From NCBI GenBank assembly GCA_000002435.2, contig CM018789.1: a DNA stretch of 64,000 bases; one strand, given 5' to 3'. The DNA is from Giardia intestinalis (taxonomy: Eukaryota). The position numbers were made by a program, and so were the translations under genes. This document shows positions 58,686-60,407 of the stretch, piece by piece; the stretch's first letter is position 1; every line of letters begins with the position of its first letter. The notes below the pieces were generated by a model. That model was not told where the DNA came from. It made no database searches and saw only the letters and a list, made by a program, of their open reading frames with translations.

Positions 58686-60407
58686 TCATGGATTTGAAAG
58701 CATGCTTAGCTCCTCACTCTCCTCCTGTTCACAGTTAGGTGTGACACTATCTAAGAGTACAGAAGAGGTGTCAGTAGAGATCTCCGTTTGGCCCGAAGGA
58801 ATTAAAGGCATAACCTTCTGAGGCGCGTCTAAGTCGGAAATAGAAATGCACTTTCTGTGCTCTTTTTCCACGCGGATCCTTAGACAAATATATGTTCCTA
58901 TAGAGACGATGCTGATTAGCGAAAATACTAGAAGCAAGATCGCCATGAGAACAATAGTGGAGCACCGTACCGTAAGAAAGTACTCCTCTGGGTGTAGAAA
59001 GTCAGGGTATGGTGCCCAGTACATGACGACTACCTCGGCCTCTATATTGTACGCATTCACCCCCCGAGAGATCTTACGTAGAGGTCCGCCACAGGTGTTA
59101 CGCCTAGACCTGGCAGGATCCAAAACTAGCCAGTAGTCTCCAGTGACTTCGTCACTTCCCCAGCCCACAATCAGCACGGTGTGATTTGTGTTGCTAGCAT
59201 AGAAGTGGCGTAGAGAGCGATTCGCAGATGCGCTAGAATAGTCCTCCAACGATGTGCTGTCGTCCTCAGTTACAACGTAGCGTACGTCCTCTGTAGAATT
59301 TTCATCACAGTTATCCCAATCAGCATTTGCATAAACAGACGCAACGACAGGTCCATGTCGATAGATTTCCCAGATGATATCATCCTGTGCATTGGTGTTT
59401 CCATAGTATGAGCCTAAATAGCCATAATTACTGAAATAGTAACGCACTTCCGGTCTACGTGTCCTGTTTGCCACACAGCCCCCCTGATCATCAGGGATGT
59501 AATAGTCCGTTATAAAGATACCAAAGTCTTCTGAAAACTTTCCGACCTCGAAGGGAGTACCGCCCGCGCAGCCCTGGCCGTACTGGCTGCAGTCGAGGAC
59601 GTGGCGGGCGGAGAGGAACGTCTGCTGCCCGAGCGGGTCTGTCCGGTTGCTCGCGACCATCACGCGCGCCATCATGGCCGCCAGCGCCGCCTCCACGTAG
59701 CTGCTGTTGCACCCCCGGCCGGGGGAGGCGGGCGGCGCGGCCGGGAGGAACGAGGCCCCGCCGACGTCCCCCCACGACCAGGCCGCAGGGGGCGGGTCTC
59801 CTAGTTGGAGGTTCCAGCTACTTGCGTTTAGAAAGCTTGCTGTCTTTGCTTTTCTTGCAGACCTGCTCTTCGAAGAAGGACGTTGCTTAGGTACTAGAGC
59901 TGGTTTTCTATCCAACTCGGAAGCAACGTCCCTCTGAACATAGTGAGTTGTTACATTATAGTTAATCAAGGGTTTGATGAGCGAGCCCGTAAGGCAATAG
60001 AAGGATAGAGGCTGTATTCCCTGAGTTGTTCGCCACCCAAAGTGAATCTTATCGCACCGTGAGCTCACTTTATAGTGTGTGTCATTGTATATTTCAGCAG
60101 AAAAGGCTGAAATAACGTAGAAGACATCTGTTGCTATACGCAGTTCAAAGCCATGATTGCCTATGGGTGTCCATCTTCCTGTATATCCACCCTGACTCTG
60201 GGCCACACCATTATCCATCAGTGTGACATTGAGCAAGGTTACTCGGGAAGATAGAGACGCCCTCGAATTACAACCCACATAGTCGTTGCTTTTCAAGTGT
60301 CTATCTTTGGCAATAGTAAAGGACCAAAGGCCTAAATACTGATCCGAAAAGCATCTAGCTGATAAATATTCTGCAATCAATAGCTGAAAAAAGCATAACA
60401 AAAGCAT
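58686..60407 (-). CDS. cathepsin-B-like papain-fold protein, membrane-anchored, probably non-catalytic
   Basis: Signal-like N-terminus. 'DCSQYGQGCAGGTPFEVGKF' (compare [21 protein letters not shown]), 'HTVLIVGWGSDEVTGDYWLV' (His retained), 'RGVNAYNIEAEVV'. The segment aligning to 'QGSCGSCWAFGAVEA' is 'GRGCNSSYVEAALA' (catalytic Cys to Ser). C-terminal TM 'IVLMAILLLVFSLISIVSIGTYICL'. Confidence 0.6.
   Translation of the reverse strand: MLLLCFFQLLIAEYLSARCFSDQYLGLWSFTIAKDRHLKSNDYVGCNSRASLSSRVTLLNVTLMDNGVAQSQGGYTGRWTPIGNHGFELRIATDVFYVISAFSAEIYNDTHYKVSSRCDKIHFGWRTTQGIQPLSFYCLTGSLIKPLINYNVTTHYVQRDVASELDRKPALVPKQRPSSKSRSARKAKTASFLNASSWNLQLGDPPPAAWSWGDVGGASFLPAAPPASPGRGCNSSYVEAALAAMMARVMVASNRTDPLGQQTFLSARHVLDCSQYGQGCAGGTPFEVGKFSEDFGIFITDYYIPDDQGGCVANRTRRPEVRYYFSNYGYLGSYYGNTNAQDDIIWEIYRHGPVVASVYANADWDNCDENSTEDVRYVVTEDDSTSLEDYSSASANRSLRHFYASNTNHTVLIVGWGSDEVTGDYWLVLDPARSRRNTCGGPLRKISRGVNAYNIEAEVVVMYWAPYPDFLHPEEYFLTVRCSTIVLMAILLLVFSLISIVSIGTYICLRIRVEKEHRKCISISDLDAPQKVMPLIPSGQTEISTDTSSVLLDSVTPNCEQEESEELSMLSNP
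59560..59810. other. local GC-rich island (about 70-75% GC vs about 49% window average) inside the cathepsin-B-like CDS
   Basis: Runs of GGCGGGCGG / CCGCCAGCGCCGCC. Covers the codons of the papain-domain N-terminus, including the substituted active-site region. Produces chance overlapping ORFs in other frames (59491..59775, 59601..59804, 59707..59937). Confidence 0.6.

What the first reader, a model, noticed from the sequence alone, without database searches (positions are those of the whole stretch)
58686..60407. Membrane-anchored cathepsin-B homolog with the catalytic Cys replaced, carrying a sharp GC-rich island over the active-site region
The ORF aligns convincingly with cathepsin B across the GCxGG region, the His-containing 'ILGWG...YWLV' block and the 'RG...IEAEVV' block. 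The segment equivalent to 'CGSCWAF' reads 'RGCNSSY', so the nucleophilic Cys appears to be Ser. That is analogous to the inactive TIN-ag-type cathepsin-B paralogs. It also has a signal peptide, a long N-terminal extension and a C-terminal TM helix, suggesting a surface-tethered pseudoprotease that might bind peptides or cystatins rather than cleave them. The DNA encoding the substituted active-site segment (about 59560-59810) is about 70-75% GC in a roughly 49% GC context. That points to a localized conversion or recombination event, or an unusual selective or mutational regime.
Basis: partly seen in the sequence, partly recalled or inferred. Interest (0 to 1): 0.6.

Follow-up and report, generated by a model that had tools for sequence, protein, structure and literature searches.

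The report
Dead cathepsin-C gene with gene-conversion GC island
This Giardia gene encodes a membrane-anchored cathepsin C (not B) look-alike that has lost its catalytic cysteine, and its sharp GC-rich island is a 243-base stretch kept identical to a neighbouring sister gene by repeated gene conversion, which appears to have driven its GC content up.

Summary
A 573-aa ORF lies at 58686-60407 (-). Ser236 occupies the nucleophile position (CGSC is replaced by CNSS). A 243-nt island at 59559-59801 has 76.5% GC against a 47% background (z = 8).

The family assignment was wrong. This is a cathepsin C / DPPI homolog with an exclusion domain, not cathepsin B. It is 100% identical to a Giardia duodenalis WB protein that NCBI names "Encystation-specific protease". 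It is not the experimentally studied ESCP, which is GL50803_14566 (541 aa, YRPI tail).

The oxyanion Gln and the Asp1 anchor are also lost, and the catalytic Asn is replaced by Asp. Orthologs show dN/dS of about 0.13, so this is a maintained pseudoprotease.

The GC island coincides with a tract that is DNA-identical to a 498-aa paralog. In assemblages A2, E and B that paralog lies about 8.1 kb away, head-to-head, which in WB would put it just beyond the window end. In the flanks the two genes are saturated at synonymous sites. Of 35 tract sites that vary among assemblages, 31 covary in both paralogs, which shows ongoing interlocus gene conversion.

Tract GC3 is 0.90-0.95, against 0.39-0.46 in the flanks. 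GARP residues are doubled. Homologs in G. muris and another diplomonad have no island. GC-biased gene conversion is the best explanation.

The parts
58686..60407 (-). 573-aa ORF: type-I membrane cathepsin C (DPPI)-family pseudoprotease. It is 100% identical to G. duodenalis WB XP_001707889 / KAE8301385, which NCBI names 'Encystation-specific protease'.
60357..60407 (-). Hydrophobic N-terminus, a putative signal peptide (aa 1-17, MLLLCFFQLLIAEYLSA).
   Evidence: Kyte-Doolittle peak and AF2 helix 2-12. No dedicated predictor was run.
60024..60362 (-). Cathepsin C exclusion domain (aa 16-128). The 'DTP' N-terminal Asp1 anchor found in other DPPIs is deleted.
   Evidence: PF08773 scores 43.8 bits against a cutoff of 27. 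The region is a beta-sandwich at pLDDT 80-92. N-terminal alignment.
59802..59969 (-). Basic, Ser-rich linker in the pro-region position (aa 147-202). Low model confidence, not conserved.
59559..59801 (-). 243-nt GC island, which is the interlocus gene-conversion tract (aa 203-283). It encodes the N-terminal strand, the dead active-site motif CNSS, the central helix and the QGCAGG loop.
59700..59702 (-). Codon AGC = Ser236 at the nucleophile (papain Cys25 / DPPI Cys234) position.
59718..59720 (-). Gly230 at the oxyanion-hole Gln (papain Gln19) position. It is Asp in assemblage E and Gly in B.
59181..59183 (-). His409, the retained catalytic-position histidine.
59118..59120 (-). Asp430 (GAT) in place of the catalytic-triad Asn.
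58998..59801 (-). Papain-like (Peptidase_C1) domain, aa 203-470. It carries a low-confidence acidic insert at aa 374-403 (59199-59288).
58881..58961 (-). Transmembrane helix (aa 483-509).
   Evidence: KD19 up to 3.06. AF2 helix 475-520.
58689..58880 (-). 64-aa cytoplasmic tail. The conserved C-terminal acidic cluster plus SMLSNP may be an [DE]xxxL[LI]-like sorting signal. There is no YRPI motif.
   Evidence: The motif reading is an inference.
58679..58685 (-). AGTAAAT directly after the TGA stop. It matches the Giardia polyadenylation consensus AGTRAAY (consensus from my own knowledge).

Best explanation
The ORF is a Giardia duodenalis (WB, assemblage A) cathepsin C / dipeptidyl-peptidase-I family protein. 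It has a signal peptide, an exclusion domain, a papain-like domain, one TM helix and a 64-aa cytoplasmic tail.

It cannot work as a cysteine protease. The nucleophile Cys is Ser236, the oxyanion-hole Gln is Gly230, and the triad Asn is Asp430. The N-terminal Asp that anchors the substrate amino group in DPPI is deleted. Only His409 remains.

The gene is nevertheless under purifying selection. It is therefore most likely a non-catalytic, lumen-facing binding, regulatory or oligomerisation module of the endomembrane / peripheral-vacuole system (inferred).

The GC island is a separate, DNA-level phenomenon. The 243 bp that encode the dead active-site half are continually homogenised by non-crossover ectopic gene conversion. 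The partner is an inverted (head-to-head) 498-aa paralog that lies about 8.1 kb away in assemblages A2, E and B; by synteny it would start just beyond the window end in WB. The rest of the two genes has diverged to saturation. Repair of the heteroduplex is GC-biased (inferred). Over time this has pushed third positions to 90-95% GC and shifted the encoded peptide towards Gly, Ala, Arg and Pro.
For: Family:
- Pfam finds Peptidase_C1 (53.7 bits) and CathepsinC_exc (43.8 bits).
- phmmer to PDB hits DPPI at 2.8e-26, against about 3e-3 for cathepsin B.
- An AF2 model (pLDDT 71, pTM 0.71) matches DPPI 1jqp and 3pdf at E 1e-25, TMt 0.85.

Dead site: alignments.

Selection: ortholog dN/dS in the flanks is 0.063/0.474 (A vs E) and 0.178/1.29 (A vs B). 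The short paralog gives similar values.

Conversion:
- The codon alignment shows 242-243 nt with 100% DNA identity between paralogs in P15 and in assemblage B, and 2 interior plus 2 edge differences in DH. The boundaries are sharp and the same in all three.
- Paralog flanks have pS about 0.8 and dN about 0.8.
- Of 35 tract sites that vary among assemblages, 31 show the same pattern in both paralogs. About half of these are synonymous.
- In tract-only trees, long and short group by genome (91-99% bootstrap). In flank trees they group by gene (100%).
- The paralogs lie on the same contig, head-to-head, with conserved gene order in assemblages A2, E and B.

GC bias:
- Tract GC3 is 0.89-0.95, against 0.39-0.46 in the flanks, in all seven genes.
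- 49% of variable tract sites are G<->C changes, against 4.5% in the flanks.
- Both within-genome interior differences in DH are derived C->T in one copy.
- GARP content is 0.43-0.47, against 0.19-0.28 in the same region of 13 other homologs.
- The G. muris genes and two genes of another diplomonad have no island.
Against: - No biochemical or localisation data exist for this protein. 'Non-catalytic' is inferred from sequence alone.
- A Ser-His-Asp arrangement is formally present.
- GC-biased repair has not been demonstrated in Giardia. I found it only invoked as a possible explanation for the GC-rich rRNA genes (PMC10123126).
- Substitutions in the tract could not be polarised with an outgroup.
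- The Cys-to-Ser change (TGC->AGC) and the Gly-to-Asn change (GGN->AAC) are not themselves AT-to-GC changes.
- DNA of the WB paralog itself was not retrievable. Only its protein was, and that is identical over the 81 tract residues. DNA-level evidence therefore comes from assemblages A2, E and B.
Confidence: 0.75

Rival explanations
1. The protein is still an enzyme: a papain-fold hydrolase that has switched from Cys-His-Asn to a Ser236-His409-Asp430 triad.
For: The joint changes Cys->Ser, Gly->Asn and Asn->Asp, with His retained, recur in G. muris P0035 (CNSS/H/D) and in P0032 of an unknown diplomonad (CNTS/H/D). By flank phylogeny these belong to a different clade. That recurrence hints at a selected configuration. 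The gene is under purifying selection.
Against: - In G. duodenalis the oxyanion Gln is lost, and the position varies (G/D/G) among assemblages.
- The Asp1 substrate anchor is deleted.
- The sister gene, which shares the identical Ser-bearing tract, has lost the His (Tyr).
- From my own knowledge, papain-family Cys->Ser variants such as SERA5, TIN-ag and engineered C25S are essentially inactive as proteases.
Confidence: 0.08
2. Gene conversion is real, but the high GC is maintained by selection rather than by biased repair. Candidates are an mRNA or DNA structure, a codon preference, or a need for an Ala/Gly/Pro-rich peptide.
For: The tract's synonymous divergence between assemblages is about 5 times lower than in the flanks (dS 0.23 vs 1.3). 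That could also reflect constraint on the nucleotide sequence.
Against: - There is no Rfam match at 57000-62500.
- The GC excess is strongest at third positions (0.95), and it ends exactly at the conversion boundaries in both genes.
- Homologs elsewhere encode the same fold with ordinary GC and ordinary GARP content.
- The excess of G<->C changes is what a W-allele fixation disadvantage predicts.
Confidence: 0.12
3. [quoted passage not shown]
For: NCBI and UniProt name P0001 and P0002 'Encystation-specific protease'.
Against: - The Touz laboratory and a proteomics study give ESCP as GL50803_14566. That gene is 541 aa, 60 kDa, at CH991779:404385-406010, with a YRPI tail motif.
- This ORF is 573 aa and has no YRPI in any frame.
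- It lacks the catalytic Cys.
- The 541-aa G. muris protein P0036 has YRPI and intact CGSC/H/N.
Confidence: 0.04
4. The GC island is a foreign insertion or an assembly or collapse artefact.
For: The composition break is sharp. Some short-read (Logan) protein fragments stop at the tract start.
Against: - The tract is in frame and homologous to the same region of all diplomonad DPPIs.
- It is present in both genes in independent assemblies of DH, P15 and an assemblage B isolate, and in the long gene in WB and three Logan contigs.
Confidence: 0.01

Closest known systems
Cathepsin C / dipeptidyl peptidase I (MEROPS C1; PDB 1jqp, 1k3b, 3pdf)
   Same: It has an exclusion domain plus a papain-like domain. 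The matches are E 2.8e-26 by sequence and TMt 0.85 by fold. The invariant Cys233 (the first Cys of CGSC) and the QGCxGG loop are conserved.
   Different: The nucleophile Cys is Ser, the oxyanion Gln is Gly, the Asn is Asp, and the Asp1 anchor is deleted. It adds a C-terminal TM helix and a cytoplasmic tail (the TM is shared with other diplomonad DPPIs) and an acidic insert at aa 374-403.
Giardia ESCP (GL50803_14566; Touz et al. 2002/2003) and its G. muris ortholog P0036
   Same: Both are diplomonad membrane-anchored cathepsin C homologs with the same domain order.
   Different: ESCP is 541 aa with a YRPI tail motif. The G. muris ortholog keeps CGSC/H/N. It falls in a different clade in flank trees, and identity to this ORF is about 32%.
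Ser-substituted papain-family pseudoproteases (Plasmodium SERA5, TIN-ag / TINAGL1, testin, silicatein). This comparison is from my own knowledge.
   Same: A papain fold with Ser at the Cys25 position, retained under selection for a non-proteolytic or altered function.
   Different: They belong to different subfamilies (cathepsin L- or B-like). None has an exclusion domain or a TM anchor. They arose independently.
GC-rich interlocus gene-conversion tracts in paralogs. Known examples, from my own knowledge, are mammalian histone and Hsp70 genes and rDNA (Galtier 2003; Kudla 2004; Escobar 2011).
   Same: A block of paralog identity with covarying lineage-specific substitutions and a strong GC3 excess confined to the converted block.
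   Different: It occurs in Giardia, an organism without observed meiosis. The tract is very short (243 bp) with fixed boundaries inside two otherwise saturated genes. It covers an already inactivated active site.

Membership tests
Papain family, Peptidase_C1 (PF00112) | Profile match above the gathering score | tested here: met
   53.7 bits against a cutoff of 20.7, E 3.9e-14
Papain family, Peptidase_C1 (PF00112) | Catalytic Cys (papain Cys25) | tested here: not met
   Ser236 in CNSS aligns to the second Cys of CGSC
Papain family, Peptidase_C1 (PF00112) | Catalytic His, Asn and oxyanion Gln | tested here: not met
   His409 is present. The Asn is Asp430 and the Gln is Gly230
Cathepsin C / DPPI | N-terminal exclusion domain | tested here: met
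   PF08773 scores 43.8 bits against a cutoff of 27. The fold match covers it
Cathepsin C / DPPI | Overall fold closest to DPPI | tested here: met
   1jqp at E 7.8e-26 and TMt 0.85. The next family (cathepsin X) is at 1.9e-10
Cathepsin C / DPPI | Mature N-terminal Asp1 (DTPANC) that anchors the substrate amino group | tested here: not met
   'DTP' is absent: the sequence reads AEYLS-ARC, against ADTPAxC in other diplomonads and metazoans
Cathepsin C / DPPI | Dipeptidyl aminopeptidase activity, chloride dependence, tetramer | not testable with these tools
   Biochemistry is required
   Cathepsin B hits are E 0.002-0.005 over 34 residues, with no significant domain. Foldseek gives about 3e-8, against 1e-25 for DPPI. 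The occluding loop was not examined separately.
ESCP (GL50803_14566) | 541 aa, YRPI sorting motif in the cytoplasmic tail | tested here: not met
   The ORF is 573 aa with no YRPI in any frame.
Interlocus gene-conversion tract | Block of near-identity between paralogs with diverged flanks | tested here: met
   242-243 nt at 100% identity in P15 and B. Flank pS is about 0.8
Interlocus gene-conversion tract | Lineage-specific substitutions shared by both paralogs within a genome (concerted evolution) | tested here: met
   31 of 35 variable sites covary. The tract tree groups by genome at 91-99%
GC-biased gene conversion | GC3 excess confined to the converted tract and absent from homologs outside G. 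duodenalis | tested here: met
   GC3 is 0.89-0.95 against 0.39-0.46 in the flanks. G. muris and the other diplomonad have no island
GC-biased gene conversion | Polarised W->S fixation bias | tested here: inconclusive
   There is no usable outgroup. The support is indirect: 49% S<->S changes, and both interior within-genome differences are derived C->T

The most novel reading that the evidence does not exclude
The 243-bp tract is a long-lived ectopic recombination hot spot in an organism with no observed meiosis. Its GC3 of about 95%, its shifted amino-acid composition and its loss of the oxyanion Gln show GC-biased conversion overriding protein-level selection. The dead CNSS active site may have been imported or spread between cathepsin C paralogs by conversion. 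Flank trees place this gene with catalytically intact relatives (P0006, Hexamita). The same CNSS + Asp signature is otherwise found only in a different clade (G. muris P0035, P0032). If correct, this would be pseudoenzyme formation by gene conversion. It would also be a direct, datable footprint of homologous recombination and biased mismatch repair in Giardia.
Probability: 0.2. Interest if true: 0.7.

Novelty: new member of a known kind. Interest (0 to 1): 0.5.

Why it matters
1. It corrects a misleading annotation. The gene named 'Encystation-specific protease' is not the studied ESCP, and it cannot be a cysteine protease. This matters for protease-targeted drug and encystation work.

2. It shows that Giardia keeps two conserved membrane-anchored cathepsin C pseudoenzymes whose function is unknown.

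3. It gives an unusually clean, base-resolved example of ongoing interlocus gene conversion with a GC-bias signature in Giardia. Recombination, sex and the cause of the very low heterozygosity in Giardia are long debated. The tract offers a simple marker for measuring conversion and repair bias across isolates.

Tried and rejected
- A search of the window for a second copy of the tract or the protein found none. The paralog lies beyond the window end.
- The WB paralog DNA could not be fetched: P0009 is not on record. The A2 isolate DH was used instead.
- The first AF2 run, with 7 sequences, was unusable (pLDDT 42). It was repeated with 26 sequences.
- A second conversion patch at 'GDYWLVLDP' was rejected, because the codons differ at synonymous sites.
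- Two word-indexed homolog searches did not recover G. duodenalis GL50803_14566 itself. Only its G. muris 541-aa counterpart was obtained.
- DuBois 2008 and Touz 2002 are not held in the paper library.
- Literature searches found no report of inactive Giardia cathepsin C, or of gBGC in Giardia paralogs. The many 'cathepsin c' hits in PMC4559405 were 'cathepsin cysteine'.
- The Rfam scan of 57000-62500 was empty.
- A metagenome scan for the tract core found nothing.
- The 94-aa ORF at 59491-59775 (-), in another frame, is dismissed as a stop-free by-product of GC richness.
- No C(T/A)ACAG Myb2-type encystation motif (motif from my own knowledge) was seen in the 197-bp upstream spacer.
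Full report
**Observation.** The minus-strand ORF 58686..60407 (573 aa) exists.
- A 150-nt sliding window shows GC of 0.71-0.79 between about 59550 and 59850, inside a gene that is otherwise 0.38-0.55.
- After I delimited the feature by comparison with paralogs, it is 59559..59801 (243 nt, 76.5% GC).
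- All 243-nt windows of the 64-kb window average 47.0% (sd 3.7), so z = 8.0. The next highest window is 60.5%, near 30551.

**What the protein is.**
- Pfam gives Peptidase_C1 (53.7 bits) and the cathepsin C exclusion domain PF08773 (43.8 bits, aa 16-128).
- Against PDB sequences the best hits are rat and human dipeptidyl peptidase I (2.8e-26, 3.7e-24). Cathepsin B reaches only about 3e-3 over 34 residues.
- An AlphaFold2 model built on 26 homologs has mean pLDDT 71 and pTM 0.71, with domains at 80-95. It matches DPPI 1jqp and 3pdf at E about 1e-25 and TMt 0.83-0.85. This is far ahead of cathepsins X, K, L and B.
- The protein is therefore a cathepsin C homolog, not a cathepsin B homolog. The 'N-terminal extension' is the exclusion domain.
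- It is 100% identical to G. duodenalis WB XP_001707889/KAE8301385. It is 88% identical to the P15 (assemblage E) ortholog and 73% to the assemblage B ortholog.

**Active site.**
- 'GCNSSY' aligns with 'SCGSCY' of DPPI. Cys233 is the neighbouring, invariant first Cys of that motif, and Ser236 (AGC, 59700-59702) sits at the nucleophile position.
- The oxyanion-hole Gln is Gly230. The position is Asp in P15 and Gly in B, so it appears unconstrained.
- The triad Asn is Asp430. His409 is retained.
- The mature N-terminal 'DTP' is deleted. This includes the Asp that anchors the substrate amino group in DPPI.
- A hydrophobic N-terminus, a TM segment at aa 483-509 and a 64-aa tail are present.
- The tail ends in a conserved acidic cluster plus SMLSNP. 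I read this as a possible dileucine-type sorting signal, by inference only.
- Ortholog comparisons outside the tract give dN/dS of about 0.13-0.14. The gene is therefore maintained by selection. It is a pseudoenzyme, not a pseudogene.

**It is not ESCP.**
- The Touz laboratory and an organelle-proteomics study identify ESCP as GL50803_14566.
- That study's supplement lists the gene as 541 aa, 60 kDa, at CH991779:404385-406010. Its sorting motif is YRPI.
- This ORF has no YRPI in any frame.
- The exhaustive HMMER search returned a 541-aa G. muris protein (P0036, TNJ29350) with a YRPI tail and intact CGSC/His/Asn.
- The database name 'Encystation-specific protease' on this ORF therefore appears to be misapplied.

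**The GC island is a gene-conversion tract.** The protein alignment showed that an 81-residue stretch is identical between this gene's orthologs and a 498-aa 'Dipeptidyl-peptidase I' paralog of the same genome. Overall identity between the two genes is only about 40%.

- *Location of the paralog.* It lies head-to-head about 8.1 kb away on the same contig, with the same intervening genes, in P15, DH (A2) and assemblage B. In WB that position is about 4.5 kb beyond the window end, so nothing is found inside the window. The WB paralog protein P0009 is identical over the 81 residues.
- *Identity at DNA level.* The codon alignment shows 242 and 243 nt of perfect DNA identity between paralogs in P15 and B. 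DH has two interior and two edge differences. The boundaries are the same in all three, sharp to within a few bases.
- *Divergence outside the tract.* The paralogs are saturated (pS about 0.8, dN about 0.8).
- *Covariation.* Of 35 tract sites that vary among A2, E and B, 31 have the identical pattern in both paralogs. Roughly half of these are synonymous.
- *Trees.* Tract-only trees group long and short by genome (91-99% bootstrap). Flank trees group them by gene (100%).
- This is concerted evolution by recurrent interlocus gene conversion, continuing after the assemblages split. Gene order between the inverted copies is conserved, so the events are non-crossover.
- A second candidate patch (GDYWLVLDP, which includes Asp430) differs at synonymous sites and is not converted.

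**Why it is GC-rich.**
- GC3 is 0.89-0.95 in the tract, against 0.39-0.46 in the flanks, in all seven G. duodenalis genes examined.
- The encoded peptide has 43-47% Gly/Ala/Arg/Pro. The same region of 13 other homologs has 19-28%.
- 49% of variable tract sites are G<->C changes, against 4.5% in the flanks.
- Both interior within-genome differences (DH) are derived C->T in one copy.
- Synonymous divergence between assemblages is about 5-fold lower in the tract (0.23 against 1.3).
- The homologous regions of G. muris P0035 and P0036, and of P0006 and P0032 from another diplomonad, show no island.
- This pattern matches what is described for GC-biased gene conversion in other eukaryotes. In Giardia I found it invoked only for the GC-rich rDNA (PMC10123126).
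- Selection on the nucleotide sequence is not excluded. However, there is no Rfam match, and the excess stops exactly at the conversion boundaries.

**Evolutionary context and an open point.**
- All other diplomonad and metazoan DPPIs sampled keep Q...CGSC/H/N.
- G. muris P0035 (CNSS/H/D) and P0032 (CNTS/H/D) share the Ser + Asn + Asp signature.
- Flank trees nevertheless put this gene with the catalytically intact P0006 and a Hexamita DPPI (98-99% bootstrap). They exclude it from the clade holding P0035, P0032 and ESCP-like genes (100%).
- Tract residues are slightly more similar to that other clade, but support is weak.
- Either the signature arose convergently, or it was imported by an old conversion. 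I could not decide between these.
- The Cys->Ser and Gly->Asn changes are not AT->GC changes, so gBGC did not directly create them. The Gln->Gly loss may be gBGC-related.

**Function (inferred).** The likeliest reading is a non-catalytic DPPI-fold module facing the lumen of the ER / peripheral-vacuole system. It could bind peptides or partners, or assemble with the active cathepsin C. A Ser-His-Asp hydrolase is a low-probability alternative. The lost oxyanion Gln, the lost Asp1 anchor and the His-less sister gene carrying the same tract all weigh against it.

**Verdict.** The pseudoprotease and 'localized conversion' ideas are supported, and the cathepsin B / TIN-ag assignment is not. The gene is already annotated, though misnamed. 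I found no report of the conversion tract with its GC-bias footprint. It is a new instance of a known kind of process, with specific value for the question of recombination in Giardia.

Noticed in passing
window 58686-60407; literature: There is an annotation conflict. NCBI and UniProt call this 573-aa ORF 'Encystation-specific protease'. The experimentally studied ESCP is GL50803_14566 (541 aa, YRPI tail), which GiardiaDB lists as 'Dipeptidyl-peptidase I precursor'. The names look swapped.
   Followed up: partly
window 57789-58649 (-), motif at about 58256: The 286-aa ORF immediately downstream on the same strand contains the tetrapeptide YRPI (MDMGYRPIFQV). This is the same motif as the ESCP sorting signal. 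It is probably coincidental, because it is not in a post-TM tail.
   Followed up: no
L008 10001-11434 and 12643-14268 (G. muris CM016925.1): In G. muris, a Ser/Asp-substituted cathepsin C homolog (P0035, tail FRPIVA) and the intact ESCP-like gene (P0036, tail YRPI) lie 1.2 kb apart on the same strand. There is no DNA identity block and no GC island.
   Followed up: partly
L007 1275-3050 and L009 6151-7662 (Logan SRR31929897): An unidentified diplomonad with about 54-55% GC carries both an intact membrane-anchored DPPI (P0006, the closest outgroup of this ORF) and a CNTS/His/Asp variant (P0032).
   Followed up: no
proteins P0010, P0015, P0016: The short-read (Logan/ENA) protein fragment P0010 of the 498-aa paralog is 187 aa and ends at GDPPPAAWS, the start of the tract. 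Two more fragments of that paralog (P0015, P0016) are also 187 aa, though their sequences were not read. This is as expected if an exact repeat breaks the assembly graph.
   Followed up: no
window 58679-58685 (-): AGTAAAT follows the TGA stop directly and matches the Giardia polyadenylation consensus. The next gene's ATG is only 37 nt beyond the stop.
   Followed up: no
window 60605-62062 (+): A divergently transcribed 485-aa Ser/Pro-rich ORF with no Pfam domain starts 197 bp from this gene's ATG. It is conserved in P15 (485 aa) and assemblage B (467 aa) but is not called in the DH annotation. In P15 its 3' end overlaps the next gene by about 50 nt.
   Followed up: no
window 59491-59775 (-): A 94-aa Arg/Gly/Pro-rich ORF in another frame lies inside the GC island. 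It is most likely a stop-codon-free by-product of the GC richness.
   Followed up: no
L001 10001-11497, L005 389-1885, L006 10025-11521: The 498-aa sister gene has additionally lost the catalytic His (NHT -> SYG). It has a short tail and keeps an Asp/Asn at the Asp1 position. It is also under purifying selection (dN/dS about 0.13).
   Followed up: partly
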